Shown one piece after another: positions 1-64,000 of a stretch of 64,000 nt of DNA. The number at the start of each line of letters is the position of its first letter. Position 1 is the first letter of the stretch. Location: positions 6,939,612-7,003,611 of the forward strand of contig CAJINV010000003.1 in the NCBI GenBank assembly GCA_905178155.1. Reading direction: 5' to 3'. The notes below the pieces were generated by a model, which was not told the DNA's origin, made no database searches, and saw only the letters and a program-made list of their open reading frames with translations. The position numbers and the translations under genes were made by a program. The DNA comes from Amoebophrya sp. A120 (lineage: Eukaryota > Protista > Dinoflagellata).

Positions 1-3000
1 GCAGGTAGCGCTCAAGCCTTGGCCTTTGGGCGACCACGTTCCTGGAACGTCGTCCCCTCGTTCGGCAGCGTCTGAAGTGCGCTCGTACCTCGGATAGGGG
101 GGCGTCCATACAGCAAAAACGCCGCAGCCCTGCGTTGCTGCACAGCGAGCTGCGCAGCTTTCCTGCGATACCCGAAAGTTCGGGTCCCGCTGTGCGGGAG
201 AGCCCTCGAAAAAAAGCGTGGCCTCCGTTCCTCGATCGTGCACTGCATTTAGATGGTAGTGGTCCGCAGTCACGTCTGATGTATCCAGGATGTCCGCCTG
301 GCCGTCGCACGGACCTAGCAGTACGGATTCTGCGTTTTTTTTGCAACGAAATCCGCGCATGGACGGCACGTAATCGATCACCGGGTGTGCCTGAGTCGCA
401 AATCGTGGCGCCGCGTCCTTGCGACGTCGGCAGTGAATCTCCAAGGAGGGACCCGAGGGGCGCGAGGTCAGCGATCCGGGCGCGCAAGCGGAGTAGAGAG
501 CACAACCGTTTTGATTCTGCCACAGGAAGTAGTTGCAACTCCGAGAACGCGTACACGCAGCTGCGCACGCGCGTTTACTTTCGACGTGGGTCGCGTCTGC
601 AGTCGGCCAGTTCGCAGAACCCAATACGTCCAAGTGTAGCATCTGCGGGACGGGACACCTTTGCTCTGCAATGACCAATTCGTACTGCAGGTCGCTGCAG
701 ACGTCGGGCTCCACGGGCGGGGCGGAAGAGAGGAGAATGCGAGCACTCTTCGTGGTAGATGTTGTAGAAACCACGCCGGGGTTGGCGTCCTGCTCTGCCT
801 CAGTAGTTTCATCAGCGTCTTCGTCTTCACCAGTCGCAGTCGCGTCAGTGGCCACGTCCAGCACCTCCTGCGGTACGGCGGTCACACCAAATGCGCCGAT
901 GCGCGAAGTGCCGTCTTTCAGGAGGTCGCTGAAGAGCGTCGACCAGAGGCGGTTCGGGTGAAATGAGTTGTCTGGCTGGTAATCCTCCGCTCTATATGCA
1001 TTGCAAATATGTCTGGCTCTGGAGGGTTGCAACTTGAACTTGTGATGCTATCTCTGGATTCTATTCTATAAAAAAATCTGTATTGCATGACGAGCAACAA
1101 GAGCGGTCCAGTTTGTGCTACGCGTATCGTATCGCATCGCTTTGACATTTGACTCCTGTCAGGGTGGCGCTAGAACAGATTTAGCCTCTGCCAATGCCGT
1201 GGCGTTAGAACAGATTTAGCCTCTGCCAATGCCCCTAGGTGGGCACCCGTTCCACGTCCTACAGATACCACCCGACCGCATCCGCCGAACCGTTTCCGAT
1301 TTCTTACGCGTGCGTACGGCCAGTGGGCGCTAGATGTGGCTGACCTGCTTTACCATCCAAGCCCGCGAGCAAGGTGGAGCTCCAGCGTTGCCTTGTTGGG
1401 TTATTCTTACAAACTTGGAACGCTACTGCTTTTGTGGTCGGTTGCGCGCTAGATATAGGCATTTTTCATGCGGAGTAGGCATCACGGAGCCGTCTAAAAA
1501 TCTGTGACGCTACGTCATGCATTACAGGCGTTATGGGTCGTCATGGAAAATCTGCATGACAAGTCTTGCAACCACCTTCCAGACCCAGACATGTTTGCAT
1601 TTGATACTCTAGTGAAATGCCACACGTCTTCATCGTTGAACGAAATTCGCACCACCGATTCCCCGAGAACACCGTCAGACTGCACTGCGATCACCACTTC
1701 TTGTTGCGAAGGCAACCTGAACTTCTGGCCAGCGGACGTTGACGTCGGGTGGTCCCTGTAGTATGTGACTTCCTGTGCGGTTTCCGTATGTGTCGACCCC
1801 GCACGACTGCAGGTGAAGAATGCACGCCCACTGTGGCCGAAGTAGTACATGAAGTCTTCGAGGGCGTGCGGGTCGTACCCTGCTGTGTTCGCCAGGTCAA
1901 CACTGGCGTCTGCAAAGGCGCTCTGCTCATCACGGTATCTTTGCACATACACGGAAAACGGACCTGGATGGAGCCGGATACGAATCTCGCGCCAGGCGTA
2001 CCGCGCCAGGGGCGGGGAACCAGCGCTACCTTGTTGTTGGGGGAGCAGCGAACTGAACTGAAGACCGACTTGCGCTCCTGCCCGCGCTTGCTGCGATGAA
2101 GATTCGTCCTCGACGCAGTGGATGTACCCCGTGGCCGTCGCGGCAGACATCCTCTCCTTCCGCACAGCGGCGTCTTCCTCCGGCGTAGAAGCACTCGCTG
2201 CTCGCCGGTTATGAAAGTGCGCAAAAGTTGTTCCCTGCCCCTGCACCTGCTAATGCTCTCCTGATACGAACATAACTCGAGATGGAGAAATTATGCGACA
2301 CGCATTGTATATTGCACAACTTTGCCACCTCGTGCCTCATGTATGCAACGAGCAGCGGAGCATACGCCTTCGTGTCGAGGAGGGAAGACAACAGGCGAGC
2401 TGCACCGAAGCGCCAATGCCATCATCCACAGGACACAAGTCCCAGGAACTTTGCCGCTCAGTCAAAGTCATGTCTTATTCTTCATGCAAAATAAAAAAAA
2501 GATAAACAGCAAGAACGCAATTGCCGTGGCCATCTCTCGCACGACTTGCGCTGCTCAGGTAGCTGCACATGATACATGTCTTATCGCATACCAAGTTTCA
2601 ACCTCCAGCGAAGCCCAAGCACAACTATCAAAAAGGGCTCGAATCTGAAAACAAGCATGGAATTTTCACGCAAAAGGAGCAGGAGAAGCACAATACGATC
2701 GTCAGGCATGATGATTGCAGCTTCCGCTACGCCACCGGCTCATGGCCTTTAAAACGTGAGGACAGGAGCAGGGAATCGGAGTTGATGCGCACTCTCATAC
2801 AAGCAGTCACCATCGATTTGCTTCGTAAGGACGGACACACCATCAATAGTCCACTGCAGCGGCCGCTCGACGGGTGCATCCTCGTGGAACTCCACAAATT
2901 GGGTGCCTTCGAAGGATGGGCCGCGCATGACGGAGACGTCAGAGCTGGTGGGCCAAAGGGAGGAAGACTTTCGCTTCAGGGTCCACGAAACGGCCTCCGT

Positions 3001-6000
3001 GAAAAAGCGCTTCTTCCAAATCTTCAGGTCTGAAGTTGTCGTAACGGGCGCGGCGGATGCACCAGCGGGTTCTTGGTGCCGCAGCTGCCACTCGGTTCCT
3101 CCAGTCTCCTGCACCTCCTCGAACCCGTCAAAGCCGTAGTACTCCTCGGACGAATGCAAAAACGGGTCGCAGTAGTCCGCGTGCACGCATCTATGGAAGT
3201 GTCAGGATCGAAATCGAAAAGGTTGAGCTACTAACTTGCCATGCATAAAATGGATGCCAGTTGGAGCCCAGTTTCCAAGAGGCGCATGACAAATTTTTCG
3301 AGCGCCGGAATTCAATCTGTCATGCTGTTTGGGCGCAGAAGACTGCTTTTGTCATGCTACTTTAGCAAGTCTATTTCAAATCCTAAACAGGCTCACAATC
3401 GGCCTCACTTGCCATCCCCGCAAGACAGACACAGGCACCCCATGCCTTACATTTTATGCATATACAAGTTCTATTTCGATTTTGTCGATTTCGGTCCTGA
3501 CGCTTCCATAGCATCGCAAAACCACGTAAACGGTGCACTGCACACGGGTCAGAAACTCGACACGGGACGCATCCCGGACTAGGCCGGACACGAGCTGGAC
3601 CCGGCGGTGCCACGCTCCGAGGTTGGCCTCGGCGGGCGGCAGTACCTGGTAAAACGGTGCGTCGCTAGACGCGGAGAAGCTCTTCACTTCAGTCTCTTCC
3701 GGAAAGGCTTGCGTGAGGTTTCGCCAATGCCACCCCTCGGAGGTCAGCCTCGCCTGCCGCAGATTTATCTCGTCAAGATCCACATCCTCGAAGTCAAAGC
3801 TCGTTGCGGTGTACATGGCTTGTCGAAACTTGGAAATATGGACCACCGGCTGGAGAAAATTCTTTCGGCTGCCCTCCACGGCGCGAATGGGAAGGTCGGC
3901 CACAAGTCCAGCTGATGAAGCGTGCGACCCTCCGCCTAGTTGCGCGCCACCGACGAGAAAGCTACCTAGGCGCTCGCTCGAACCGCGCACCCAGCCTTCT
4001 AGAGGCTCCGCCTTGCAGCAAAATGCGCTGCTCATACCGATACCGACGTCCGCATACTGCGAGATACACCGCTGAAAAGCTGAAGTTTTTAGCTCAGAGG
4101 GAATGAGTGTCATCACGGTTTTGGGAAAGGGCGCCCAACCGTTAAAGTTGTTGTCGCACATTGCGTTCGGGGTGGTAGACGCGGCCATTGAGTGCACGAC
4201 AAACGAGTACAGGCTCGCTGATTCCCAGCTGGACGACAACGACGAGGAAGGCACGTTTATTCCATCTTCGCTGCTGGTGAAGTGGTCGAATCCCGCTGCA
4301 TCCAGGCGATGCACATCCGCGCGGAGGAAGGTTTCGTAGCTCGTCAAGGTTGACGCTGCGGCGCTGCCGAGATCTTGTTCCGGGTTTTGCTGATCAACAC
4401 CAAGAAGCGCCCCGCGACCTGAACCAGCAAGCTGTTGCACGGTGAAGGTGAAGCAATCCGAACTGAATCCCTGTACGCGCATCAAGAAGCCCGCGCAAGA
4501 ACCCGCCGCATCCTCTCGACACCTGATCGCGCACTCGGTGGCGGTTTCCACGGCGGAAATGCTGGAGGAAAACGAAGAGCCGAACACTGCGGCATCAGGG
4601 GTGTTTTGCTCGTGATCCCAAAACAGCTTGCGGCCCGTGTTATCCAGGGGCCACCCGCTCCCCACGCGATAGAATCCGAACACGGGAGCGGCGACAAGGG
4701 CCGACGAGACGTGATGCCCAACCACGCGATAGCAATGTCGCTCCTGATCCTGTCCGCTTCCACTGGCATCAGTCCACGAAAGCAACCCACGAAAGAACCG
4801 ACACGTGCCCCGCACCGGACCTTGACCCGTAAACCGGTCAGACGCAAAGTACGTGAATCCGGAGCATGCACCGGTCCCAAACGCAGTGACAAAATCAGCA
4901 CAGAGTTGCATGCACGTCGCTGGGTTGCCGGACGTGGAGTAGGGTCCCTGGAGGTCATCGTCCTCGACCAAGTCGTCCGGATAGTCAACCAGAGTTGTCG
5001 TGCGCCTGATGAGCGGTGGGATCGTTCGCCAATCATTGACTTCGCCGCCAGTGTCAGCAGGAACCAAGACTTCCAGGTCGACAAGCGCGCTCATGTTCAG
5101 GATTCGTGTTCCACTGCAAGCGGAGTTCGTTTCTACGTGCCAGTGCAGCGCAGTCCCGAGCCCCACGAAGGCGCCTGCGTTAGTATCTTCCACCGCGGTA
5201 GAGACCATCGTAGAGGAGGAAGACGAGGAGCCCCCCGCGCGTTGTTCTTGTTCCTCCGTCGTTCTGCCGAGTGCTGCAGTTGTGCCGGTTTTCACGTAAC
5301 AAGACTTCTTGCCGGAGGCGCTACTGGCGGTGTACTGCACGTCTTCACTTGTGGCCACCGACGTGGTGGTTGTTCTACTGATGTCGACTTGACGCATAAG
5401 CCTCACTTTTGTTCCACCACGGCAGGAGGCCGAGGACGGGGAGGACCCGCTACCCACGGTAGTGTCTTGGCTTTCGGTTTCGCCACCAGCTTGCTGTGCG
5501 TCGACGTCATCTTCTGTATACTCGGCTTCGTCGGACCAGCTCGTGAAACCGGCGCAGTCAGAGTAACGGTTGCACAGAAGCTGCCCCTCGAGTGCGGTCA
5601 TACGTTGCCGAGTTACTCCAGCGCAGGAATTTCCCTCGGCGTCGTCCACGTCTCCGTCGAGCACCACGTTGCGGCACGCAGGGTAGCGGGCATCGAATGG
5701 GGTCGCGCACAAATAGCCCAGCTTCGTCGCAGCTGAAGTTGTGCCACCCGGCATCGCATCAGGAGACGCCGAGCACTCCACGCCGAGGACGACCTCGTAG
5801 CGCGGACCGTCTGCTGTGGGGAATGTAGGAGGAGGGGACGAGCTCCCCATGGTGGAAGCTGAGAAACCCGGCCACCAGGGAGCGTCCGCCGCACCGCAAG
5901 AGCGGGAGCCTCCCACTTGGCCATGCCGGAGCAATTCGAGTGCCAAAGCGGACAGCTCTCGGTCTGGGGTGCAAAACTCGTCCGCAGCGTCACCGCGCGG

Positions 6001-9000
6001 ACACTGCGTCCATTCTCGCCCGCTACTTGTCACGCAGTGCCCCTTGCCTTGCGGTGGCAGTTGGTCGGTCATCGGATCAGACAGGTCTAGGCTGCGATAG
6101 CATCGCCACTCGTAGTGCTTGTGATTGCCGTCTGCGTCGGCAATAGCGACGTGGCGGGCGTACGAGAGCACGGAGAGCACTGTGGAGCACTCAGACTGCT
6201 CGAGGTACTCGTCATTCTCAAGACTTTGGCAGTATGCGTCAAGACTCTCCTGGAGATTGCAAGACTGCGACGCCAGATCGTTGAAAAATAATGAAACCTC
6301 GTCCTGTAGTTGCGGACTAAAAAAATCCTCGCGCCCGTCTTCAGTGTCCTGTTGAAACAAAGAGCGATGGCGCGAGGCCCCGGAGGACTCGTGGAGCTTC
6401 CTGTTGCCGGTGGTGTCCTCTTTGCGCATGCTCTTGAGCTTGTCCTTCTTGTGACTTTGCAGCATTCTTGGTTGCGCTTTCGTACTACCAGGAGACTTTT
6501 TTCTTCGTCCTGCTCGTAAATCTCGAAGAGAAAGAGATGATCTTCTTTGCTTTGCTTTTCTAGGCGGCCACGAAGTGGTAGAGGACTCCGCAACTGCGCG
6601 ACGTCGAAAGCCTTCATCCTGCGGTGCTTCCAGGAAAAATGTGCTATCGCCATTGAGCAAGCTTTCTGCAGAGCTGAGTGACGTAGACGAAACCAGAATA
6701 CCGGTGCGGTTATTCAGCGCGTCCGTGCCGGAGTCGACGCGATACAGGGCATCGATTGGTCCCATCCGGGATTGCGAGCCGCCCACAGGCCAGGCGAATA
6801 CGGCGTCAAACTCGTGGTCGAGCGGGTCGCGCCAGGTGGTGTCGTAGAGCGTTGCTTTTGGTTTTCCCGTGCTGTCTCCGACGACGAGGCTCAGGTAGGA
6901 CCCATACCGAAGGTCGTCCCACACCCCCGCGAGCTGCGCCGCACCCCAGTCGCTCTCCTGCGGGAGGCAATCTGCGCAACAGAACCCGTGTCTTTTCATG
7001 TACACGGACCCGTCGGCAAATCGCAGCTCGGGGTGGCCATACTCCGCCGCACACAGGAATGCGGCGTACGTGTTTCCTACAAAATTCTGGCCACTGCTGG
7101 GGTTGGCAGCGGCATAAGCCTCCAAAATGCTCTCGGCGGTACTGTGGTCAAACTCGAGCCGATCCTTCATAGCTCGCATTATCGGGAGTTCCACGGCTGC
7201 CTCGGTGTTCTGAGCGGTGCAAGAAAACTTTCCGATGGCCGCTATCGCCTGACTTTGTTCACTTTCAGTAGACCACTCGTCGAAGATAGTAATCGTGCAA
7301 TACCGATTGCGCAGGTTTCCGTGTCGCCCTTGATCTACGTCATTCGGCTTTTGGCGTCGACCACTTGGGTGGTCGAAATTAGTGTCTCCAGTGTGGTGTC
7401 CCTGGTCCTTCCGGTCATACACCCGTTCATACTCGCCAGCGTACCGGTCCGCGATTCCGGCAGCTTCAAACTGCATTTGGCATTCTCGGTACCTCGGGGC
7501 TTTGTTGGTCGACAAAGAGCAACTCGTATCCAAGGAAAAAAAAATGCTCCAGTGACACACTGGCTGCAATTTCAGCAAGAAGCCAAGATAAGAACACCAA
7601 CACAAAGTTGTCCTGCATATACAAAGAAGACTTGCAGCTGCAATGCGAAGATCATTATCATAGAAAAAACAAAGGAACACGCATGAAAAAACGAGGCTCG
7701 CACGCATTTTTTGCTTCGCAAACGTTAACTCTCTTGCTTGTCATACAACACATCAGGGTGTAACAACTGTAACATTTTTTTCGCGCGATAACTTTCCGGA
7801 TACTTCGGGCAAACTGCTAATTCCGTCGGGCAGCACGTCTCCACGCTGCACGAGGAGGGCTCGTCCGTTGCGCAGAAGTTATCCAAGAAAAAAGTGTGCA
7901 AGTGTATGTGTAAACTTGTGCTTTGGATGATGCAAGACTGTCGCACCTGTTATGCTGGATATGCATCCTAGGTCAGTTCAACTGACTCAGATGCATGCGT
8001 GCTGTTTCCACGTACTAGCTGCGCGTGAGACAGGTTTCCTCTGTAATGCAACACGAATTTCTTGTTCTTGTAGAAGTGATGCAGCTGCTTATGAACATGA
8101 TGATCCGATGGAACAACAGGTTACACTAACACAGTTTTTTTCTTGGATAGAAGTTATTCCAGTTGTAATAGCGCTTGAAGACGTTGCCCCCGTTTTCGTG
8201 CGGTTGGCACTGCGTTGGGTCGTCGCGCACGAATCGGAGCGTGTTCCTGTCATTGTACTTCACTCTGTCATTGCAAGAGAAGCGCGGCACGCAACAGTCT
8301 TCCTTCGTGCAGTTACGGGCGAACGGACCCCAGCACAGGTTTGTCGGCTTCAAGTACTCCGTCACAGGATCGCAGGTGACCAAATCGGCAGCTGCCGCCT
8401 CCGCGCAAGAAGCGAGTGGCATCGGGCAGCACTGTTCCTCGGTGCAGGAGGTCGTACTGTCGTTCGCACAGCGCTGCAGGTGGTCCGCATGCGTGTTGTT
8501 CTGAAAGTAGTCAAGGAAGGCTTTGCGAAAGTAGAACTTGTCCGAGTGCGTATACGGAAGATGGCTCACGTACCTGTTCCCGGGACCGTGTTTCTTCCAG
8601 TACCTCCGGTCGATATTTTTGATATAAACCGTCTGGTCATTCGTCAAAAAGAAGTGCGGGTTTGCGGCCATCTCGAGGTAGATTCTGGTCCAATTGTGCG
8701 CATTCAGTGGCAGCGTACTGGCGAAGTTTTTAAAGCGACGCCCCGCGTCGCAGGAGTGTTTTAGAAGAACCCTTTCAGTCCCGTTTAAGAAGAAGTCCGT
8801 CGATCTGTTCGCGGCGATTTGTTCCAGGCTCGGATTCCTCGTACTGTGGGCCGACCGTAGGTCGATCGTGCGGCTGATGTTCCGGTGCACTGCGGCCAGT
8901 GGCCGGATCACGTCGCCGGAACACACGCGCTGCGGCGTGCAGCACTCCTCCGGCGCACAGCTCTCGATGCTCCAGTGGCGGCAGAACTTGCGGGTATCTA

Positions 9001-12000
9001 GAAAGTGGTGCCGCGGGCAGATGACATTTGTTTCTGCAGTGCAGGGATGGAGGGGCATCGGACAGCAAGTATCGACTGTACAACTCTCCATCGTGCTCCC
9101 GAAGCAGAATCTGGTAGCATTGAAGTACTGGCGCAACTCAGTATTGCAGTGCTGCTTCAGTCGCACGACCGGTTGCAACACGTCCGACAAATCAGCTGCT
9201 CCCACCCACAACACCTCCGCCCGTTCCGCCACGGCAATATCCGGCTGGGTTGCCAGAAGGCTGGGCACTACGACGGCCGCCGTCGCCAGCTCGTTCTGCC
9301 CCGATGCGATTATGGGCCCCTTGTAGCGCGAGGGGGTGGTCGTGGTCGTTGTAGAGCTCGTAGTTGTGGTTGTCGTTGTGGCGGCTGCAGCTCCACCACC
9401 CATTCCCTCCATCCCACCACCCATTCCCTCCATCCCACCACCAGGTGGATCACCCATCTGCACACGTCGTCGCAGCAACGGGGGTGACAAGTCAACGTCC
9501 TCGGTGGATAGCAGCTCTGCGGGGTAATCGGCTGGCAGTGGAAATTTTTCCAGCACACTCGTTAGGGGGACCACCACGCGCGGCCCCTGGCCACAAGTTG
9601 CCGCCAAGGGGCAGCAAACGTCGACGGAGCAGGACTCCTCATTCCAGGAGGTGCAATTGGCCTCCCTCACGAAGGGACGCTGCTCCCAGGGGTGTGCCTG
9701 GTGACGCAGTTTGCAGTCTTCGATTACCCGTTGGGAGTCGGCGCAGGGAAAGCGAACAAACTGGCAGCAGGAGTTGAGATCCCTCTCAACGGTGCAGCGG
9801 TCCGTGGTGCAAACTTGATTGGAGCGGAACTCGGTAGCTGCATGTCTTGCTTTCGCGAGCGCTGTGCACTGCGCAAGCATCGCCGTCTTCACGTCCGCTT
9901 CCGCCTCCCCACAGCGCTGCCGCCGGGGGCAGCACTCGTCTGCCTGGCAAGTTTCTCCGCGGCAGGTGTGCGCGGCGCGGAAATATCGCTTGCTGTCGGC
10001 TTGCTGCCGGTCCGGGAACAACCGAGGGTCGTCCAGCGCCCACAAAACGCCGCGCGTTCCCGGTGCGGACTGTATAGAGGGGAAGTGAAATAAGTGAATG
10101 CCCTTCGTCGCCGCACGAAAAGTCCGTCCTTTATGCACATTTTCCTCGATCAAGCGGGAAATGCGCACAAAGGAGCACGGGGCGTTATTTTGCAACTTGT
10201 CATGCACAAAAAAGCTGTGCACACAGGATCAGGAAGGACGAATCTGTCACTGTCCCTGTCTGGAACTGGTGGATCCTTTCTGCATGACAAAATCAAAAAG
10301 CTAGTTTTTTGCAGAGATCAGTCAGCTCCAGTATGCGCTTTGGAGTAGCTACCAGTTTCGGCACACATTTCGCAGCATAAAAGTGACGCCCATACTTAGA
10401 CTTACACCTCGCCCTGGAAGTAAAAATATTCTTTTTGTTCCTCGCTTTGGGGGTACGGATTACCGAAACCAATACAATGTGAATATGATGATCATGATCA
10501 CGATCGCACTGAAAGACAAAGAGTAAGCGCAAGGACACTCACTTAATGCCCTCCTCCATAAACTGCCGCGTATCCGTGCAGTTCCACGCTTCCAGCTGAG
10601 GTGGAGGCACCTCGCGGCACTGCTGCCGCACCCGGCAGCACTCTTCTTCGAAGCAGCCCGCGCCGTGACACAGGTGATCCGACGCGAAGGTGTAGAGGGT
10701 CGGAAGGTGCAAATCCACCGCAGAATCCAGCGCGTCATCGAGGAACTCCAGGTCGTCGTCGTCCGCTTCATCGCTCGGCGTTGTCGTCGTCGTCGACGGA
10801 GGGGCGGGAATACCCGGCGCAGGCTGCAGAACCACTCCATCGGACATGGCAGCCCCACTTTCGTAGAGCGCGCCGATTTCCAACGGCGAGAGGCTGCGGG
10901 CAAAGACGGCCCAAGACGCAACTTCGCCGCGCAGGAACTTGCAAAAGGTGCACGTCCCGTCCGCAGTGACGGCCCGATACCCGCCCATCTGCAGGAACGC
11001 ATCGGCTCCCTCGACGTGTGTGGCGGGGACTGTCGCTGGCGTCTGGCTCGAGATCAGTTGCCCGTTGATGTACAGCGTGTTTGCGTTGGATGCGGGGTCG
11101 TACGTGGCAGCAAGAAAATACCAGTCGCTACCCTCTGACGAAACGGGGGATGTCAGGTCGGGGAGATTCTCCACGACCGCGGATACGCGCCACACGTCGA
11201 GGTGGAGTTCGACGCTTTGACCACTTGTGGCCACACTGAGATAGTACTGCGTGTTTCCAGTCGCTGGAGAACTCGGTCCATACCCGAAAACCTGTCCGTG
11301 CACGCTCTCCGCCGGAGCACCTGCGTATGCATTGCAAATATGTCTGGATCATCTGGACGAAATGGTGGAATCAATGCAGCAATAAAAAAAGGCAAAGAAT
11401 TGCGTGGTCGTGCCAATAAAAGCTGTCGCCCATAATTTCGGGGTCGTGCTACGGGAAAACGAGTAGCGAGCCAGCGAGCCTCTGGCACTGCTCATTTGGG
11501 TGGAGAGGCATCGAGAGCCTGGAAAAAAACTCGTATTGCCTTTGCGTCAAAGTAGATTCCAGACGATGATGAATCAGTGTGAACATAAAAATAGTGATCT
11601 TCGAACAAAGAAGGTGCATGACAACAAACACGCACGCCGCAATGAGGTTTCAGACTCTGACTCAGACATATTTGCGTTTGGTACGGCGGGGGCACCGTTA
11701 AGTTTGAACCAGCCCGCCAGGGTTCTCGCGGCAGCTCCCCCGGGTATCTGATAGGGATTCATGCCCTCAGCGTCCACAATCGGGGCGCGGCAAACCCCGT
11801 CTTTTTCAAAGCGCAACACCCCAAACTCCGTTCTTGTCCCAGAGTGGTCGACTCTTTCCGAGGTGCCCCAGCGTGACCCCAAGTGCTGCTCCATCCCGTC
11901 AACGCAACTCATGTCTGGGCCGATGCGTCCGCGAATGCGGTTCTCGCCGTCGTCACTCTGAACATACGCTGTCTCCTTGTCGAGCACGTAGAAGGCGACT

Positions 12001-44563: not shown

Positions 44564-45310
44564 TTATTTCTTTCCTGCTGTAGAGGTTTTGGGTACGACA
44601 GAGATATGGCCCGGAAGGCGCTCAATACCAAACTGACCGCGTTTGCAGTGCAAAATAGGCACGCCAGGAATCTTCCGTATTCTCCTTTTCAAGTCTGCAT
44701 CGTTTGTTCCAACCAAGTAGCACTTGTGATTGTGCACGCGCTCACAGAGGCAGTCGTCGGCGTAGGTACCCTTGTGCGTGCAGGTCAATCGCTCAAACCT
44801 GTTGTAGTGGATCATGCCAGTGAAATTATATATCTTTTCTCACGATGATCATGGCTATCGTGGGAAAAATTATCCAATAAGTAGCACTTGATTTTATGAA
44901 GTAGGAAAAGCCATTGAGAAACGTAAGTACCTGGGGTCGCGGGCGAGCTGCAAAGCCATTCGATATTTGGAGCCCATTTTTTCCAGTTCTGCCAACACGC
45001 AGTCGGTAACGCAAGGGATGCACTTCGCTAGCAGCAAATCCATCATGCCCTTGAACAGGTCCACCTTGTTCTGAAGTGCTGAGTTCACGAAGTTCGTGTC
45101 GACCAGAACCCGGTAGGGAGGTACGAGATTTTCGTTAAACGAGAAAAAAAGGGAGGAGTGCAGCTGTTCGACTTCCTTGGTCTTCTTGCTCTCCTTTTCC
45201 TGTTTGTCGAGCACTTGTTTCCGTACTTCTGGAGCCTTCGTTCTGTCGTCATGCTTGGAGATCATGCGCTTCACCAACGCAAACTTTTTCGTGCGCTTCG
45301 TCTTACCCAT
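44564..45310 (-). CDS. FCF1: rRNA-processing PIN-domain nuclease Fcf1/Utp24; canonical GT-AG intron 44799-44930
   Basis: [37 protein letters not shown]|[33 protein letters not shown]. Confidence 0.95.
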
Positions 45311-52700: not shown

Positions 52701-55700
52701 TTTTGACAAAATTTCAGGGCCGCGGAAAAGTATTCTTCGGCTTTTTCGTAGTTCCCGAGGCTGAAAAGCGAGAAGTTTAGCTTTGTTCTTGATCAGGAGC
52801 ATGCATGCGCTGCAGTATGCATGTTCGTGAGCGAATTCAAATCATATCGGTGGACCTTAGAACGTGTCAATTGCTTAACTTTATCTTTCGTAAAAGTTGA
52901 AATTAATCATGGTAGACGAGAGGACCGAGGAAGTTTACAAAGTCGCGACAACATCGAAAGACGATGGCGACGCCATGGTGACGATGTCGACCTTGCAAGG
53001 GGAATGTTGTAGTTTTTGACACATCGCGTGTCAATCCACTACTTGCAAGAGCAAGTATGAGCAAAATTATAGCGACAGCAATATCTACCCTGCAAAATGA
53101 AAATCTACTTCTCCTGTGTCTGTCCGTCGCTTGTATATCTTATCATTTTAAATTGTAGTACCTGTTATAGGTGTGCGCAATGTTTTCGCAGAGGGCGCCG
53201 TTCGGACCCAGCATGTCTTCCATCTCCAAGAAGAGCGGTAGTGCTTCTCGAAATTGGTTTTTCTTCCACAGCACGAAAGCGTAGGCCTGGATCCCCTTCA
53301 ATTTGTACTTGGACTGCGGGTGGGCGCGACAGACCGGCACGATCTCCTCCAGGTACTTTGCAAGCATATTGAGGCGGTACAGCTGAATTGAGTTGTCAAA
53401 CAGCTCAAAGAACTTGTCCAGTGTTTCCGGGGCGTTGAGTCCTTTCGCCTTTCGAAGGTCCAAAAATTCCCGCTCGAGAATCACCTCATCGTTCTCGTTC
53501 TTCGCGGCATTTTCCGCGTCATCGTCGGGGTTGAACTCGCCGCTGATCACAGACTTCAGCTGAAAAGTTCCAGCATTCTTGCCGGTGGAGGGCGGCCCTC
53601 CTGAAGAGGCTTCGACGCCGTGCGGGGCACTAGATAGCTCTTGCTGCATATGGCTGTTTCAGGATCGAAATCGTCAAAGGTGAGACGATTTGCAATGCAT
53701 AAAATGCATGACCCGAGGTGCGTGTGTTGCAGAGCAGGCAAGTGAGGCCGATTGTAAGCCTGTTTGGGGTTAGGGCTCGAGCTGCTAAAGTAGCAGGAGA
53801 AAATCGGTCTTCTTTGGCTAAACAGCATGACAAACTGGATTTAGGGACCACTAAAATTTGTCATGCGCCATTTGGGAACTGGGTTCCAACTGGCATCCAT
53901 TTTATGCATGACAAACCATTTCAACTTTGAGGATGTCAATCCTGACACATCCATACTGCAGGGAGCTCCGGAGGGCCGCGGCTTCCCGCTTTCCCACACA
54001 TTTCCACTTCTTCCCGGCGGTTGTCTTCACCAGCGTCACGCTCAGCTGTTTTTTGTCGACCTTCTTCAGCTTTTCAAGCTGCCAGGCGCTTTCGTCCACG
54101 TCAATCTTTCCGATCAGCTCGTCCTCAAACAGGAGCTCTTTGCTATGGATGTGTCAGAGTTGAAATCGACAAAGTTGAAATAATTTGTCATGCATAAAAT
54201 GGATGCGAGTTGGAACCCAGTTTCCAAGTGGAGCATGACAAATCTAGGTGGTCCCTAAATCCAGTTTGTCATGCTGCTTAGGCAAAGAAGAGCGATTTTC
54301 TCATGCTACTTTGGCAGCTCTAGCTGTAGCCCCCAACAGGCTTAGAATCGGCCTCACTTGCCTGCTCTGCAACACACGTGCCTCGGGTCATGCATTTTAT
54401 GCATTACAAATTATTTCAACTTTGACGATTTCGATCCTGACACTCCCATATTTGCCGATCACAACTTTCAGCGAGTCCTTGCGAATGTTGCAGTGGACGT
54501 CTCTCGTTCTTTGGCCATGTCTATTCGTCTCCCTGTGCTCGCATAAGAGCACTGCAGCAGCCGGGGCAGAGACGCCAAAAAGAAAGCGCTGCGAAGCAAA
54601 TGCAATTAGGCAAGAAGGCGCGAAGGCAAGGGCGAAAGGACCAGGCCGAGAGCTTTGGCGCGTCTATCCGGCAGGCGCGTGAACTCTCCGGCCTTTTCGG
54701 CAGAATATAGACGGGCTGAGGGCAGCAGAGGGCGCTCGTCTTTTCCCCTCGGCCCCGCTTCCCAGGGTCTATTTGCGGAGTTCCTTGAGCACTTTTCTGC
54801 GCTAAACTTTGCTTATCACGGTCGAAAAGTGGCGCTCGGTGAGTTTTGGGGTGAATTTTGAAAAGGACGCCGGTGAATTTTGTCCTCCGGCTCCTTTTCA
54901 AAATTCGCTAGCGCGTGAGAAACTCCGGGTTTTGGGGCTTCAACAAAGTGTCGCCAAAACAAAAAGTCCCAAAATTCACCAAGGGAATTCTTGACCTGGG
55001 GATCACGTCGAATAAGACTTGCTCCGGGGGCAAAAAGACACGTGGGGAGTTGTGAGCAGAGCACAGCAGGCGAAGCAAGCTAGCGCCCGCGGCCGAATCG
55101 TGCCTCCCCTTCCACCCGAGGCTGCTCCCAGATATCCAAGTCCAAGCCGAGCCAACCACAACTCGTGAGAGCATACATGTTGAACTAGTGCCCCTGTGTT
55201 CAGGCGTCGCCCTCCCTTTCGACCATTTCGGAGAGGAACTTCTGAGGCAGACGCGCAGAAGACTAAGAGCCCCCCGACCCACCTTCTCTGGTCGCTAGAT
55301 ACGCACTACACAGCCCGGCGAGCCCCCGCAAGACCACCTCTTTTGGTGCTGCAAGCGCCACCACGCGACGAGCAGCCCTTCAGGCTATGTGGTATGCTTG
55401 GGCTCGTGTCCATACGTAGCGCTCTTTTCTTTTAAGTAAATGCAAGTCATGCAATACAAACTCACTGCAAATTCACACTTCTGTACGCTAACGACCGTTG
55501 AAGACATAGGTTCTTTGCCGATCACAACTTTCAGCGAGTCCTTGCGAATGTTGCAGTGGACGTCTCTCGTTGACACATCCGGGGCGCACATGAAATCGAG
55601 CTGCAGCTCTTCATCGTTTTGGGAGAGCACAAAATTGCTCCCGCTCGAAGCAGCAGTAGAAGCGGACGCTGCGGGCGCAGAGAGATTGGAGCAGGAGCTT

Positions 55701-55729: not shown

Positions 55730-56605
55730 TGCTCCTGGACTATATCACAAGAAAAATTGTACCCCTGCAACCTTCTTGCACTTGCTTCATCAATTTCTAT
55801 GAAGTTCCATCATTTTTTCTGTTTTTCTGTTTGAAACGGCCCTACATAACTACAAAAAAACATCTTCTGAGAGGAAACAACAACATGCGGTGGAGGTCGC
55901 CGGGGGTACAATTTTGATTGCGATACCACAACGCTAGTATCCGACACCATAATATCAGAATATAGAAGTAGATGACACTCCTGTCCTGGAGAAGGGATAG
56001 GTTTTCATCTGGTCTACAATTTCATGAAAACACGTCGACAAAGTTCATAACCATTTAGACGAGAAAAGGAAAACAAAAAGAATAAGAAACTTGGACTACT
56101 AACTTGCATAATGATAATGTGAAAGCAATGACAACGCTTGACTTTCAAAGTCACTTTGATCTTCTCCATCATATATTCTCCGAGGAAAATCAGAAACCCC
56201 TGCACGTGTTCACAAGTTGATGCGATCCTGATTCGGAGGACTTCGTTTCAAATGCTTGATCCATCATCCTGCAGAACCAGGAGCCGCTCAATCATAGATA
56301 CAAAGCACACCTGGCATCGTGCGGATGGTTCTGCGACGAGCTTCGTTTTTGCCGATGAAGAAGCAGAAGAAAAAACGTTGACATCATGCTCCTGAGAAAA
56401 GTGGTAGTGGTTGCAGCTAAGCTGCAGGAGGTGTTTCCTTGTTCTGCCGGGCAGTCACGATGCTGCACAACACGAACACTACGACGAGCACAAGTGATCT
56501 ATTGGGTTTGCGTCAAGTCGTTGGTCATGCGCACAACTCCGATTTGGAACCTTTCACTTTCTAGTGCAGCTCGTCGTGTACGTAGTTTGTCTTTATTGGC
56601 ATTTA

Positions 56606-59555
56606 TCAATTATACATACAAAGGCCCAGCGCTGCTTCCCGGCGCTTCGGACGGGTGTATTCCCAGCCGCGCACAACTCGGTGCACCTCGTGACCCGTGT
56701 CCTCCTGCTCATGATCGCATCGTTCGCGCATAGCAGCACAGTCACGAAAAATGTCAAGGTTCGCGGCTGTACGATGATCACTACAGTGTGAGTGATGCTC
56801 ATCATCATGTGATGTTCCATGAGCCAGGTGCTGTCCTCCCCGACCTGCTCCTGCTCCTTCCTTCCTCATGTTTTCAAAATTTACCTGAACGTCGCCGGTT
56901 GATCGCTCATGCTCGAGTAGTTTTGCGAGCATTGGGACGGGAATGTATTTTTCTTTCTCAGAAATCCAGTTCCAGTCGAGGTCCCCGAAAAACGCATCTG
57001 CACGGATATCGGAGGTCCGTCGCGCACCCAGCCTGTCTTTGGGTCTCTTTTGCAAAAGGTGTCGTAAAAACGTTTTTGCGTTGGGCGATATCTTCACGCC
57101 CGGGGGTCCTCGCACGGACGCCCGCTGCGTTGGCTTTGCTTCATACAGAATTGGATGAGAAGTCGACGAGCGTTTTTTTGACGTCCGCCCTGGCCCTCCG
57201 TCATGAGTCGTTTTTTCACACGCAGGAGGTCGTGCTGAAGAGGTACTAGTACCATCCGCCTGGTTAGCAGCTGCAGTGTTAGCAACGCCGTCCTCTTCGA
57301 CAATAAAGGAGGCGGACAGCAAATGGATGCGTCAGGTTCGAAATCGACAAACTTGAAGTGTTGGCTTGGCATGCGTAATAAAACCGTCCGACATGACCAG
57401 CTTGGCCCCGCCCAATTCTTAAGCGCCGCAAGCTAAATCCAGTCTGTCGCGCTGTTTGGAGAAAGAAGTCTGGCTCATCTGTCATGCTCCTACTTTAGCG
57501 GACTTATCTCATCTACCCCAAACAGGCTTACAATCGGTCTCACTTGCCATCCCCGCGAGGCAGGCACATACATTGATTGTGCCACCTACACCTTGCATTT
57601 TATGCATTGCGAGATCTCATTTTCAACTTTTGAATCTCTATCTCGAGACTGACGCTCCCATATAGCAAAACGTCGATCGGCTTTTCCAGGATGTTTCGAA
57701 ACAGCCGACGTCGGTCCCGAGTGTTATGGCGTTCTCAAATGTTACATTCTCGACTGTTACATGAATTTGCAATGCAAGAATAGCATGGGTCAGAGGGAGA
57801 ACCTTGCGCGTCGTGCATTACAGTTTTGGTGCAGATTCTAGTGCTATTTAGCCCTCCGAGAATTTGTCATGCGAAGCAGCTTCATTGTTTGGTGGCTCAT
57901 GGTCATTTTGCATGACAGTAACAGTTGAGAATGTAACGTTTGAGAACCCCATAAGTGTAAAAGGGGGGCGTGCCAGACAGCATCTCGAACAGTAGGACCC
58001 CGAGTCCATAAGTATCGAGTGTGTGTCCGTGCCCCCGGCGCTGCAGCATTTCCGGTGCGAGGTATGCCACGGAGCCGCAGAAGCTTTCGCCAAGTTGCTT
58101 CTTCGAGGTCGTAGTTCCTTTTTGCGCTGATTGCTTTTCGCGTTTTTCCTGCGGCTGTGAGATCTTCTGCTCCTGTGGCAGCGCCAGCGGCTGACCACAC
58201 TGCACTGCTTGTACGGTCGCTGGTGGTCGTGCAGACGGCGCGTTTGCAACTCCATTTGTGGTCGTGGTGCGCGTGGGCAACAATTGCTCGTCTTCCACAC
58301 TTGTTGCGACTGGAGTCGATGTCGCGGCTAGTATGGAAGCGCCATCTGTGATCTCGACAAACTTGAAAGTATCTATCTGTCATGCGCGAAGTGCTAGGCT
58401 GGACAGAATACGCGAATAGGAGAGCAAGCAGATGACGATGAAGACGATTGTAAGCTAGGCGCAAGAATCTGGCTGGTTACTACAGGGCATGCCATGAGCA
58501 ACCACATTTGCACCAATCAGCATGCCCACGCTCAGTCGGATTGGGATGTTCGCAAAATTTGTCACGCGCCGCTTACATATTGGTTTGGGGGCCAAAGAAG
58601 TCGAAGCGGCGGCGATGCTATGCGTCGCAAATTGTTTCAACCCCGTCGATTTCAAGCCTGACGCTTTCATAGTTGGGGAGGGGAGCGTCGAAGTAGAGTC
58701 GGCCGGCGAGGGGGCTTGGGAATGCCATTCAGATGTCGGAGAGCTGTGAAAATCATGACCGCGGCCCCCGGACGAGAAGGCTGCGCCATCAGCCTTAACT
58801 GCCGGAACGTGGATCGCTTCAGCGTCCGCTGCCGCGGCAGCCAAATAAGACGACCCGGTTGTGTAATTCAATTGCAGACTGAGTCCGAAATCCGTCAGGT
58901 AACTGTGTCCACGCGCATCCAGAACAATATTTTCCGGCTTCATGTCGCGATAAAGGATGTTGCGCTCGTGCAGGAATTCGAGCGCCAATAGCTGCTGCGC
59001 CGTGTAGATACGGGCGAGACACTCCGGGAACCGCTTTAGCTTCTGCAGTAAGTGCTGCATGTTGCCCCCGTTACAGTACTCCAAGCAGAGCACCAACTTT
59101 GTCGGAGTTTGAAAAGCGTAATGGAGCTGAATGATGAAATATCCACGAAAAAACACCCATCCCCATCCAATTTGTCATGCAAAACATGCGTAAAATCCAC
59201 TATTTGTCATGCAAAAAATGGATGGGGATGGGTGTTCTTTCCTGGATATGAAAGGGTGGTTTGTCACAAAGGACAGCACATTGCGCTCTGTTATCGCGTA
59301 GCGAAGCAACCCTCGTCGGCAGATTCGCTCTTTCGTCAGTACTTTCATGGCGAAATATCGAGGCCGAAGTGCTGAAGACGAACTGCTAGGCAACGCGCAG
59401 TTGGAGCTCGAGTTGCTGGCTCTGGAGGCTGCTGGAATCCTGGTAATATCCCCCGCTCGCTCGCGCTTCTCTTGAACAAGATACACTTCGCCGAAGCTTC
59501 CCTTGCCGACCTGGCGGAGGACGATAAAATCCTCCGGCCGCGCGTGTGGCGTCAC
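56606..59555 (-). CDS. AGC-family Ser/Thr protein kinase (S6K/Akt-like) with 4 introners; true N- and C-termini uncertain
   Basis: VGKGSFGEV, FAMKVL, HPF|IIQLHYAFQT, YRDMKPENIVL, DFGLS, SFCGSVAYLAPE, GTPPFY, LLQKRPKDRLG. Confidence 0.9.
57322..57662. mobile_element. Introner family B, degenerate
   Basis: AATGGATGCGTCAG ... CTGACGCTCCCATA; DR cagca/tagca; DVLL|SASF. Confidence 0.85.
57725..57953. mobile_element. Introner family D
   Basis: Same TIR as 26193-26473; perfect DR agtgt; PFYT|RDRR. Confidence 0.93.
58332..58671. mobile_element. Introner family B, degenerate
   Basis: TATGGAAGCGCCA ... TGACGCTTTCATA; DR gctag/gttgg; SPT|ATST in frame. Confidence 0.85.
59140..59248. mobile_element. 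Introner family C (109 bp)
   Basis: Homologous to 50298-50406; perfect DR tgaaa; restores kinase HPFI motif. Confidence 0.94.
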
Positions 59556-60379: not shown

Positions 60380-60436
60380 AACGGGAGACAAACGACCTTT
60401 AGTGGCTTAGCCACTAAAGGTCGTTTGTCTCCCGTT
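60380..60436. repeat. 57-bp palindrome (28-bp perfect arms, 1-nt spacer)
   Basis: aacgggagacaaacgacctttagtggct-t-agccactaaaggtcgtttgtctcccgtt. Confidence 0.95.
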
Positions 60437-60697
60437 TTAGTGGAGGATATATCATAGTTTTAGTAAAACTACTACTACGATATCCATTCTGCATAAGCAT
60501 ATCGTATTCAAGGGAAAGGGAAAAAAACGAAACCGGCGTTGAGGGAGATGGAAGGCGTAGGTTTTAGTGTATTGAAGAGAGATCGATCCAGCTTACTGCT
60601 CGGTTTTAGTTGCAGCATGGTCGCCATTTTACTCGAGGCCAGAAAACGACGGAAGAAATAGAACGCATCCAGCGGGGCGCCTCCTGGTTTCTGTGTG

Positions 60698-61819: not shown

Positions 61820-62720
61820 AGCTCACACCGTTATCGCTTGCTCCGGACAATGGAGGTGCTCACGCGCACCTATATTCATGTATGTGGCATGGAGATGAAA
61901 TTCAAGACTCACTCCACCAGCGCTATGTTACGTTACCACCATTCGATTTCAAGAAACGAAAATCGCACAGATACACTATATTCATTTTAATACTTTCTAC
62001 TCTGCACTACCAAGTGGATGCACGTGTGCCACCACTGTTTACTATTCAAGGTAAATTGGGTGTTGCGCTTGCGGTGTGCTGGCGTCTGTCTTACCACAAT
62101 CCTTCAGGCCTTCCCCCAGGCCCAGCTTTGTCCCAGGCACTACCACTGTTTCTTATTCTTGCCGTGCAGGCAGATGAAAATGCAAAAACTTTATGATTAT
62201 GATGAACGTATACTTTTACATTCGTCTCTCGCCAGCGCCGGACATTCATATTTCTGGAAAAAACTTCTACGTTCCAGCGAAGGACACTTTCTCATTCTCT
62301 CGTGTTGCAAACATGTTTCGTCGGTGCGTTGGTCACTCTGGCACCGCATAGGGACACTATCAAATTTAAATCCCGAAGGACAACAGGGATCGATGATTCC
62401 GAGGACCTCCGTAAAAAAGCAGTGCCACGAGCTTTACAATTTGATAACAAAGAACAGAAACATATTCGCTTCTTTCGTACTATGTGGCGTCGCACGTCTG
62501 AGACTGCAGGCCCAAGGAGGCGGTTGAGATTGAGATTACTTTTGGCGGTTCCAACCGAACTGAGAAAGGCCAACATTTTGAAAGATACCTATGAGATGCA
62601 AAACTACCACCACACGCCATGCAAATCGTTGCGCCCTCTTCAACTTCCAGCCGCCTGTTGATATCTGGGCACGACAACGGTTTCGAATAGAAACCCAAAA
62701 AGGAGCTGCTGAAGACTACA

Positions 62721-64000
62721 TCACCCGTTTTTCGCTTGCGTGTACAAAAATTGATCCTTGATTTCATCGTGTTGTTCACGAGTCGAGACTCTAATCCATG
62801 CATGAAGTCGAGACGTTGCAGATTCGGGCGCCTCACATAATTTGCATTTCTTGCGGAAGGTAGTTTTCCATTTCGTAAGACTAGCGCTCCCAGCTTGTTT
62901 GATAGAGTGCTCTGTGCCGTCTCGAGCACCAGCGTGTATTGACGACAGTGGCGCAAGCCTCTGAGACTCTGGAATTGGGAGGAGTGGAAGCCTATGCATT
63001 GGAAATGTGTAGTCTGGGTCTGGTGGAAGAGTCTGAATCATGTGTGATTTAAGGCGTGGTCGACGCAAAGTTCTGTATATATTGCATGGGTAGCAAAAAC
63101 CACCCACTTTTTTGGGTCACCTGGAGACGACAGCTCCCCGCGGAATCGCGATGGAGGACGTGGACGAGAAGCCTTCTTATATGAAACTTGCGATGTTGCT
63201 ACAGGTCGTACTGCAAACATTCTGTTCTTGGGAATGAAATAGCAAAAGGTGCATATACGAATCTCCGAAATGTTCCAGACCCAGACTAGTGCATATTAAT
63301 ATTTGCCATTGATAAAACCGCATGGCATGAGTGCACAACGGTGGGTCGTGCTCTGGACGGGTGAACAAGCTTATTGCAGCACCGCTGTTCTTCCCTAGTT
63401 TCTGGGACACCTGAAGTGAAATTGTTTCCTCCTTTACAGAGCAGCAGAGGTCCGCGCCGTTGCGGTTGCGGACCTGGATCGCACTGAGTTGTGATTGACT
63501 ACTGCTACAATCCGTGGCGTTTCCTCGTGTTAGTTACGCATTAAGTTCTATCATGGATGAAAATCTAGGCAAGCCGCGGAACCTCAAAATGGAAAACTAG
63601 GCAATTCTTTTTCGCAAAGTACCAGCGTTCCGCCTCCAGAGCCAGAACTGGTCGCCGTGTCGTTAGCAGAGAGAACGAGCGAACCCAGGTAAGGAAACAG
63701 TGGACTCAGCAGCAGGCTGGTGGACTCCAGAAATTCCTGCACAGCTTGGTCGAGTGCTTGGGAGTAAAGCAAGCGATCGACCGGATCCGCAAAGACCGTG
63801 CCTTCGATTAGAGTCGTCACATGATTTCCTGCTGTGGACGACGACGTTGCCAACGTATTATCATGCGACGAGAACGGGTCGTCGAACAGACAGAGTCGCG
63901 ACACATACTTTGCGTCAAACAACAGTTGCAACTGTCGCGGCCCTATCGACGCTGCTGCGGCCGAACTCTTCTTCGCCCATTCCAGCTCCTGTCGAAAAAC
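62721..64000 (-). CDS. Hypothetical multi-exon gene entering from the right edge
   Basis: ORFs 63584..63931, 63177..63410 and 62721..63107; the last two join in frame across introner 62993-63314. Confidence 0.45.
62993..63314. mobile_element. Introner family A, degenerate
   Basis: TATGCATTGGAAAT..GTCTGGGTCTGG ... CCAGACCCAGAC..ATTTGCCATTGATA; DR aagcc/aaacc; MRF|PLLP. Confidence 0.8.

What the first reader, a model, noticed from the sequence alone, without database searches (positions are those of the whole stretch)
995..63314. A structure-defined, non-GT-AG intron system: 36 TIR + 5-bp-DR elements that excise in frame
Seen: 36 insertions from at least 6 families plus singletons share one geometry, DR(5)-TAT...ATA-DR(5). 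Removing the element and one DR restores the frame each time, including inside conserved motifs (kinase HPF|I, Pro[11 protein letters not shown]). Among the 22 in the giant gene, sliding the junction through the DR gives a GT-AG register only for 14748-15023 and a GC-AG register only for 33353-33623. Established, from memory: IR/DR-bounded non-canonical introners have been reported in Amoebophrya, with the excision mechanism unresolved. Inference: these are removed by machinery that reads the terminal stem rather than splice dinucleotides.
Basis: partly seen in the sequence, partly recalled or inferred. Interest (0 to 1): 0.85.

Follow-up and report, generated by a model that had tools for sequence, protein, structure and literature searches.

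The report
Amoebophrya transposon introns, fixed cut rule
These are the already published mini-transposon introns of the marine parasite Amoebophrya; transcript-type contigs lack each of 13 tested inserts plus exactly five bases, one cut position fits all 13, two skip an available normal GT-AG site, and the cut is likely made by a loosened spliceosome reading a few end bases rather than the hairpin, which makes an open splicing question testable.

Summary
I count 37 TAT…ATA inverted-repeat elements with 5-nt target duplications. Removing element+5 from the 22 in the giant gene opens a ≥9,144-codon frame. They match the introners of Amoebophrya A120 (PMC7789003: IRs start TAT, 3-5-nt DRs). All 13 elements bridged by RNA-type contigs (one sample) lose exactly element+5. 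Drifted duplications leave one common register: intron = N|TAY…ATA-NNNN|, 1 nt before and 4 nt after the element (chance about 0.002). At 62590 and 62993 an in-frame, same-length GT-AG register is not used. The 'reads the stem' idea is weakened. Three excised elements have no predicted terminal stem, G·U mismatches are not favoured, and in a second assembly end variants are arm-specific, keeping U+2 and A−7. Best reading (about 0.6): a relaxed U2-type spliceosome with a ruler from A−7. No lariat test was possible, and no giant-gene junction was tested with RNA. This scan reported the same elements and the 1+4 rule on other DNA of this genome; I did not find the rule in print.

The parts
1..34663 (-). 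Giant gene, >=9,144 codons, runs off the window's left end; LamG-like lectin and PAN domains; host of 22 elements
   Evidence: frame; Pfam Laminin_G_3, PAN_1; not tested with RNA
995..1606 (-). Introner, family B, DR 5/5
2210..2799 (-). Introner, singleton, DR 2/5
3192..3510 (-). Introner, family A, DR 5/5
7527..7790 (-). Introner, singleton, DR 3/5, no predicted terminal stem
7880..8149 (-). Introner, singleton, DR 5/5
10073..10560 (-). Introner, singleton, DR 4/5
11326..11683 (-). Introner, family B, DR 4/5, sense 5' end TAC
12262..12426 (-). Introner, family E, DR 5/5
14748..15023 (-). Introner, family B, DR 5/5; a GT-AG register exists but the 1+4 rule predicts TT..TT
21041..21338 (-). Introner, singleton (family-C-like ends), DR 5/5
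21676..21982 (-). Introner, singleton, DR 3/5
24473..24740 (-). Introner, family B, DR 5/5
26193..26473 (-). Introner, family D, DR 5/5
29447..29758 (-). Introner, family A, DR 5/5
31385..31737 (-). Introner, singleton, DR 4/5
32191..32497 (-). Introner, family A, DR 5/5 (94% identical to 33874)
32574..32852 (-). Introner, family C, DR 5/5
32930..33292 (-). Introner, singleton, DR 3/5
33353..33623 (-). Introner, family B, DR 5/5; a GC-AG register exists but the 1+4 rule predicts CT..GG
33665..33817 (-). Introner, family E, DR 5/5
33874..34180 (-). Introner, family A, DR 5/5
34230..34509 (-). Introner, family C, DR 5/5
44799..44930 (-). Canonical GT-AG intron in FCF1-like gene (GTACTT…ACAACAG; A at -7)
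46530..47024 (-). Introner in ProA-like gene, DR 3/5; joint skips 500 = 495+5; no predicted terminal stem
   Evidence: (table 8); the name ProA rests on a recalled motif, Pfam gave only Aldedh E=0.097
48085..48327 (-). Canonical GT-AG intron in ProA-like gene (A at -7)
49902..50254 (-). Introner, family A, opposite orientation to 53649; joint skips 358 = 353+5 in 4 of 4 runs
50298..50406 (-). Introner, family F, DR 4/5; skips 114 = 109+5; GT at +1 under the rule, in-frame AG 3 nt further not used
50572..51110 (-). Introner, family-A-like, DR 4/5, sense 5' TAC; skips 544 = 539+5
51187..51407 (-). Decayed introner found only through RNA; DR 1/5; skips 226 = 221+5, register 4 or 5; fold z -0.94
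51770..52128 (-). Introner, singleton, DR 4/5; skips 364 = 359+5
52298..52546 (-). Canonical GT-AG intron (GTTTCC…CACTTCAG; A at -7)
52761..53161 (-). Canonical GT-AG intron (GTACTA…TTTTCAG; T at -7)
53649..53955 (-). Introner, family A, DR 5/5; skips 312 = 307+5
54144..54450 (-). Introner, family A, DR 5/5, in the second copy of a 58-nt exon duplication; listed joint ambiguous
55743..55925 (-). Introner, singleton, TIR 17/20, DR 1/5; joint 55738->55927 pins the register alone: G|TAT…ATA-TAGT|
   Evidence: (2 of 4 runs)
57322..57662 (-). Introner, family A, sense 3' end ATT, DR 4/5; skips 346 = 341+5; caps the register at <=4
57725..57953 (-). Introner, family D, DR 5/5; element+5 removal inferred from record arithmetic of X4 record 13, not a listed joint
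   Evidence: table 8
58332..58671 (-). Introner in kinase gene, DR 3/5; skips 345 = 340+5, register 4 or 5
59140..59248 (-). Introner, family F, in kinase HPF|I; skips 114 = 109+5
   Evidence: table 8 (X3 record 10)
62590..62877 (-). Introner, sense 5' TAC, DR 3/5; skips 293 = 288+5; same-length GT-AG register excluded in 4 of 4 runs
62993..63314 (-). Introner, DR 4/5; skips 327 = 322+5; same-length GT-AG register excluded in 4 of 4 runs; no predicted terminal stem
63411..63622 (-). Canonical GT-AG intron (GTACTT…CACTTCAG; A at -7)

Best explanation
These are non-autonomous inverted-repeat elements flanked by 5-nt target duplications that match the published Amoebophrya A120 introners; RNA-type contigs lack each tested element plus five bases, one register fits all (1 nt before TAT, 4 nt after ATA), and they are likely removed by a relaxed U2-type spliceosome. 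Steps. (1) Shown: repeated families, both orientations, 5-nt duplications. Inferred: insertion by an unknown transposase. (2) Shown in contigs: clean element+5 removal in either orientation, ignoring GT-AG options. (3) Inferred from drifted duplications: intron = N-TAY…ATA-NNNN, so TAY sits where the host's own donor GTAC has +2..+4. (4) Inferred, untested: U+2/A+3 mark the 5' site, the first A of ATA (position -7) is the branch nucleotide, and the 3' cut is set by a 6-nt ruler, not by AG. Because the TIR is symmetric it supplies both signals whichever way the element lands, and the duplication makes the cut scarless.
For: 13 of 13 bridged joints = element+5; the same contigs skip 5 GT-AG introns, and X3 has a poly(T) loose end at 56542, so they behave as mRNA. 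Only register 4 is common to all 13; P about 0.002 if registers were uniform. GT-AG registers are excluded at 62590 and 62993, and in-frame AGs 3 nt downstream are unused at 50298 and 51187. +2 T and +3 A are 37/37, -7 A is 37/37, and +1, -1 and -2 are random (biased by how elements were found). Host donors are GTACT in 4 of 5. In a second assembly (L001-L092), TIR-position-3 variants lie on the 5' arm in 9 of 10 and position-1 variants on the 3' arm in 8 of 9 orientable cases (orientation method 14 of 14 right on the window). At position 3, A·C mismatches are 6 and G·U 0, the reverse of what pairing predicts. All 9 A120 boundary types listed in Table S4 of PMC7789003 are NT-NN, and the A25 rows seen are TT-NN with IRs starting TTA. 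U2, U4, U5, U6 and 83 of 89 spliceosomal proteins are reported present and U1 not found (PMC7789003).
Against: No lariat, branch point or spliceosome dependence could be tested. All informative RNA-type contigs come from one sample (X1-X4, one study), are RNA only by the tool's guess, and show major forms only. Raw-read runs X9 and X10 laid 0 reads (no test). The register rests mainly on 55743 (2 of 4 runs) and 57322. None of the 22 giant-gene junctions was tested. A at -7 in canonical introns is 4 of 5, post hoc, and my attempt to extend it failed. Most elements (about 31 of 37) are predicted to pair at least some of their first three TIR bases, which would bury the proposed signals unless unwound. 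TIR position 2 showed no arm bias (6 vs 5). A spliceosome ignoring both G+1 and AG is chemically demanding (established knowledge: these bases dock the 3' site). The 1,375-nt joint at 54136->55512 does not fit the rule.
Confidence: 0.6

Rival explanations
1. One reading: a separate, structure-reading system (an endonuclease-ligase, Euglena-like) recognises the terminal hairpin and cuts 1 nt before and 4 nt after it.
For: A fixed offset from the TIR ends is equally what a stem ruler gives. Orientation-independent removal (49902 vs 53649). Most elements are predicted to close a stem (55743 z -5.49). U1 was not found. Euglena has a proven paired-motif plus spacer code (PMC12501133, abstract).
Against: 46530, 51187 and 62993 are excised at element+5 with mean in-register pairing <=0.01. 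No G·U excess over A·C. The mismatch TAC occurs 11 times on the 5' arm (3 in the window; 8 in loci), while the wobble-compatible GTA was not seen on a 3' arm in orientable cases. A25 appears to share T at +2 with a different IR offset.
Confidence: 0.2
2. A dedicated protein factor (perhaps a domesticated transposase partner or a novel spliceosome subunit) binds the shared internal motif GCATGACA/TGTCATGC and the end bases and positions the cut.
For: All 47 window copies of the motif lie inside elements, 0 in 27.6 kb of exon, 1.1 kb of canonical intron or 6.2 kb of intergenic DNA; 228 of 304 elements of the second assembly carry it. PMC7789003 suggests a novel protein subunit.
Against: 14 of 37 window elements lack the exact motif, and several RNA-verified ones (50572, 51187, 51770, 55743, 62993) lack even the looser form. 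Its inverted subterminal placement is what a DNA transposase-binding site looks like (established knowledge of TIR transposons).
Confidence: 0.12
3. The elements are excised from DNA (ciliate-IES-like or by transposase) before transcription.
For: TIR plus duplication geometry; removal of element plus one duplication restores the pre-insertion sequence.
Against: Long DNA contigs of X5 run without gaps through 8 elements that the RNA-type contigs lack (46530, 50572, 51187, 51770, 55743, 58332, 62590, 62993; table 8), at the depth of their flanks. Decayed elements with no usable TIR or DR are still removed. X5 may be the source of the assembly, contigs drop rare alleles, and 78 joints were not shown.
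Confidence: 0.04
4. They are ordinary GT/GC-AG introns with nearby or edited splice sites.
For: Some elements have in-frame GT/GC-AG pairs within 12 nt.
Against: All 13 joints have length element+5. Where a same-length GT-AG register exists (62590, 62993) the contig sequence excludes it. 16 of 37 have no in-frame GT/GC-AG pair within 12 nt. PMC7789003 reports possible editing at only 2-4% of boundaries.
Confidence: 0.02

Closest known systems
Introner elements / non-canonical introns of Amoebophrya sp. A120 (Farhat et al. 2021, PMC7789003; Gozashti et al. 2025, PMC12130899)
   Same: IR starting TAT with an A-run about 7 nt later, 3-5-nt DR (5 bp in the Fig. S19 legend), about 240-nt length, many families, RNA-supported non-GT-AG boundaries, co-existing GT-AG introns, unidirectional genes. 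By every feature I could test this is the same system.
   Different: The paper calls the boundaries variable and 'unknown' (Fig. 3 legend; IRs 1-5 nt from splice sites, Fig. S23 legend) and proposes a hairpin role. Here one register (1+4) fits all 13 joints, GT-AG options are bypassed, and the stem looks dispensable.
Fritillaria borealis MITE-derived non-canonical introns (as reviewed in PMC11282704; title and abstract opening of PMC13326754 seen)
   Same: TIR/TSD transposon-derived introns removed with non-GT-AG ends by a changed U2-type spliceosome: the best precedent for how this likely works.
   Different: Those keep preferred dinucleotides (AG-AC, AG-AT); here +1, -2 and -1 are random.
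Euglena nonconventional introns (PMC12501133, abstract)
   Same: Paired end motifs at fixed spacers from the cuts, non-GT-AG, TSD-like repeats.
   Different: The code is N3CDG / CH'GN5-6|R with pairing proven by mutation; here the offsets are 1 and 4, the motif is TAY/ATA, and variants do not follow pairing.
Micromonas, Aureococcus and Polarella introners (as reviewed in PMC11282704)
   Same: Non-autonomous DNA transposons that become introns, with the TSD giving scarless removal.
   Different: They supply or co-opt GT/GC and AG sites; these do not.

Membership tests
Amoebophrya A120 introner elements | 8-20-nt terminal inverted repeat starting TAT, about 7 variable nt, then an A-run | tested here: met
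   +2 T 37/37, +3 A 37/37, +4 T 34/37, +14 A 30/37, -17 T 34/37; definition
Amoebophrya A120 introner elements | 3-5-nt direct repeat at the exon/intron borders | tested here: met
   21 of 37 perfect 5-nt DRs, the rest drifted; exact 5 in 61 of 70 family-A pairs in the second assembly, duplicates from overlapping loci included
Amoebophrya A120 introner elements | Repeated families | tested here: met
   6 families, up to 94% identity; the same families occur in L001-L092
Amoebophrya A120 introner elements | Removed from transcripts with non-canonical ends | tested here: met
Amoebophrya A120 introner elements | Host is Amoebophrya A120 | tested here: inconclusive
   Inferred from the match to published features; no genome or organism name was given
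U2-type spliceosomal intron | GT (GC) at the 5' end and AG at the 3' end | tested here: not met
   Under the 1+4 register 0 of 37 window elements and 5 of 155 pooled elements are GT..AG
U2-type spliceosomal intron | Branch adenosine and lariat | not testable with these tools
   A-7 conservation is indirect
U2-type spliceosomal intron | Donor +2..+4 like the host's canonical donors | tested here: met
   TAY vs GTAC in 4 of 5 canonical introns; n is small
Euglena-type nonconventional intron | CAG/CTG motif at +4..+6 / -8..-6 with purine exon start | tested here: not met
   End logos show TAY/ATA and random junction bases
Euglena-type nonconventional intron | Terminal pairing required | tested here: inconclusive
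   3 of 13 excised elements lack a predicted stem and there is no G·U bias, but these are predictions, not mutations
MITE / TIR DNA transposon of a named superfamily | Autonomous partner with a transposase and the same ends | not tested
   My element scan of the loci stopped at 700 nt; PMC7789003 found no transposase in A120, PMC12130899 reports an integrase-like TIR family

The most novel reading that the evidence does not exclude
Amoebophrya runs a spliceosome that has dropped recognition of G+1 and of the terminal AG altogether. It defines introns by U+2/A+3 and a branch A exactly seven bases from the end, so any TAT-ended transposon with a 5-bp duplication becomes a perfect, orientation-independent intron on landing, and the hairpin is only a transposon relic.
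Probability: 0.45. Interest if true: 0.8.

Novelty: already known. Interest (0 to 1): 0.5.

Why it matters
The element class is published, but how more than 60% of this parasite's introns are removed has been open since 2021, and the paper left the borders undefined. A fixed 1+4 register with three conserved bases gives exact predictions: where the branch point is, which point mutations should block splicing, and how to re-annotate tens of thousands of junctions. If the spliceosome really ignores both G+1 and AG, it would change what is thought essential for the second step of splicing and explain how transposons can fill genes at little cost.

Tried and rejected
No whole genome is held. A loose TIR scan gave 675 mostly chance hits. 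Look-alikes dropped before the count of 37: 43896-44879 (spans FCF1 exons; RNA shows a 132-nt GT-AG intron instead), 48204-48372 (straddles a canonical intron end), and 49111-49316 and 35321-35512 (perfect DR, TIR only 10/20, non-coding, untested). The DNA run swamped the joint table (78 rows hidden), and 5 joints were hidden. A de novo caller for canonical introns in the second assembly printed none of the window's four known GTAC introns among its non-introner calls and gave flat logos (A at -7 in 22 of 88), so it says nothing for or against A-7. No drift of duplications towards GT or AG was seen. The family-A end pattern has 0 matches in viral contigs. In one search, 6 of 36 variant elements could not be oriented, and 7 of 30 went against the arm rule (5 of them at position 2); stricter subsets gave 11 of 12 and 10 of 10. 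Pfam did not confirm ProA or the TPR/CS-like gene; those names are recalled from motifs. Literature: searches found no paper stating a fixed register or branch point for Amoebophrya. Subscription papers (for example the Curr Biol dinoflagellate introner paper) and all figures, including Fig. 3 logos and Figs S19-S25 of PMC7789003, could not be seen and may bear on that claim.
Full report
What is in the sequence. The window is eukaryotic, with genes on the minus strand. A strict scan for DR5-TAT…ATA-DR5 with at least 13 of 20 terminal matches gives 21 hits and 0 in each of 20 shuffles. Relaxing the DR and adding one element revealed by RNA gives 37 elements: 22 in a giant gene (995-34509) and 15 in four other genes. 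They fall into six families plus singletons, up to 94% identical, inserted in both orientations. Removing element+5 nt from all 22 opens 9,144 codons from the ATG at 34663 to the window edge, while +3, +4, +6 or +7 at any one element gives 6-250 stops. Removing +2 or +8 also keeps frame, so frame alone does not fix the length. The protein has LamG-like and PAN domains. The DR is perfect in only 21 of 37.

What it is. PMC7789003 (I read the abstract, sections 11, 12, 16 and 36, passages from section 10 and the methods, and supplement legends plus Table S4 rows) describes introner elements in Amoebophrya A120. Their IRs start with TAT followed by seven variable bases and an A-run, with 3-5-nt DRs, among more than 60% non-canonical introns. 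The end logos here match. The class is therefore already known. PMC12130899 (passages) and two reviews (passages) treat the same elements. None of the passages I saw gives a fixed cut position.

RNA test. Four runs of one sample (X1-X4) hold about half the words of the query. The tool only guesses they are RNA, but their contigs skip five GT-AG introns and one ends in poly(T). Thirteen of the 15 elements outside the giant gene are bridged by a listed joint or by adjacent pieces, and all 13 skip exactly element+5. One more (57725) follows from record arithmetic. One (54144) is ambiguous because it lies in an exact 58-nt exon duplication separated by a repeat of about 1 kb; the listed 1,375-nt joint does not fit the rule and may be an assembly-graph shortcut. 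Raw-read runs X9 and X10 laid nothing. DNA contigs of X5 run unbroken through eight elements that the RNA-type contigs lack, which argues against DNA-level excision, though X5 may be the assembly's source.

Where the cut lies. When the two DR copies differ, the spliced sequence shows which copy gave each base. Element 55743 allows only one register, 57322 caps it, and 51187, 58332 and 62590 set the floor. The only register common to all 13 is intron = N-TAY…ATA-NNNN: 1 nt before and 4 nt after the element (probability about 0.002 if each intron cut at a random register). At 62590 and 62993 a same-length, in-frame GT…AG register exists and the contigs of all four runs exclude it. At 50298 and 51187 the intron begins GT under the rule, yet an in-frame AG three bases further on is not used. 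In this register +1, -2 and -1 are random while +2 T, +3 A and -7 A are invariant, which is partly built into how elements were found. The host's canonical donors are GTACT in 4 of 5, and 4 of 5 have A at -7 (small and post hoc). All nine A120 boundary types listed in Table S4 of the paper are NT-NN, as the rule predicts.

Stem or sequence? A scan of metagenome contigs with a family-A end pattern returned 92 loci; the 80 listed all come from one other assembly, which carries the same families. I called 304 elements (140 real vs 3 shuffled in 40 loci) and oriented them with a coding model that was right in 14 of 14 window tests. Of 36 with one changed base in TAT/ATA, 30 could be oriented. Changes at the third base lay on the 5' arm in 9 of 10, changes at the first base on the 3' arm in 8 of 9, and changes at the second base showed no bias (6 vs 5). 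So U+2 and A-7 are kept while their pairing partners drift. At the third pair the A·C mismatch occurs 6 times and the G·U wobble never, the reverse of what pairing would favour. Over TIR positions 4-20 G·U is not favoured over A·C (73:82 in loci, 32:38 in the window); inherited mismatches limit the power of this test. Three of the 13 excised elements have no predicted in-register terminal stem (51187 folds no better than shuffles), although most elements do form one. An 8-mer, GCATGACA, occurs 47 times in the window, always inside elements, and in 228 of 304 elements of the second assembly. Several excised elements lack it, so it is more likely a transposase site than a splicing signal (inference).

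Mechanism. Shown: transposon-like anatomy, exact element+5 loss in contigs, orientation independence, and bypass of GT-AG. Inferred: the 1+4 register (about 0.9) and removal by a relaxed U2-type spliceosome that reads U+2/A+3, branches at A-7 and measures 6 nt to the 3' cut (about 0.6). The paper reports U2, U4, U5, U6 and most proteins present and U1 not found, and Fritillaria gives a precedent for a spliceosome adapted to MITE introns. My attempt to test A-7 on more canonical introns failed and is uninformative.

Earlier scan notes. I recorded the 1+4 reading before opening them. Many notes on other DNA of this genome report the same elements and rule. One mentioned conserved U-A and A bases before I wrote down the A-7 idea. 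They are not counted as evidence.

Verdict. Real, already known as a class, with a sharper and testable splice code that eight literature searches did not find in print (figures and subscription papers unseen). Interest 0.5.

Noticed in passing
window 54137-55571: An exact 58-nt exon duplication (54451-54508 = 55514-55571) separated by a roughly 1-kb multi-copy repeat (about 54510-55508, ends TATGTCT…AGACATG). The single-copy reading gives an open CS-domain-like frame; the listed 1,375-nt joint fits no 1+4 pair. X2's numbers suggest 54144 alone is cut as element+5.
   Followed up: partly
window 1-34663 (-): A >=9,144-aa Cys-rich protein with an N-terminal hydrophobic stretch, LamG-like and PAN domains and Gly/Ala and Thr repeats; probably a surface or secreted adhesin-like protein. 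Elements crowd its 5' end (7 in 2.3 kb).
   Followed up: partly
all elements; loci L001-L092: The 8-mer GCATGACA/TGTCATGC is shared by unrelated families, often as an inverted subterminal pair about 45-55 nt from the ends; 47 of 47 window copies are inside elements.
   Followed up: partly
window 37611-39059: A GC-rich stretch of about 1.4 kb bounded by an exact 56-nt direct repeat (37611-37666, 39004-39059); looks like a separate mobile element or LTR-like unit.
   Followed up: no
window 60380-60436: A perfect hairpin of about 57 nt just upstream of the kinase transcript, between two RNA-covered pieces (59248-60240 and 60513-62043).
   Followed up: no
window 49111-49316 and 35321-35512: TAT…ATA pairs with perfect 5-nt DRs but weak TIRs in non-coding DNA; possibly decayed elements outside genes, or chance.
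   Followed up: no
window 44799-44930, 48085-48327, 52298-52546, 52761-53161, 63411-63622: All five canonical introns also have 3-5-nt junction repeats (AG|GT-type), and four have A at -7.
   Followed up: partly
L036:1738-2422; window 995-1606: Enlarged family-B elements (612-685 nt against about 270), suggesting nested insertions inside introners.
   Followed up: no
window about 37040-37265 (-): A short single-exon ORF resembling TOM7 (recalled resemblance, not searched).
   Followed up: no
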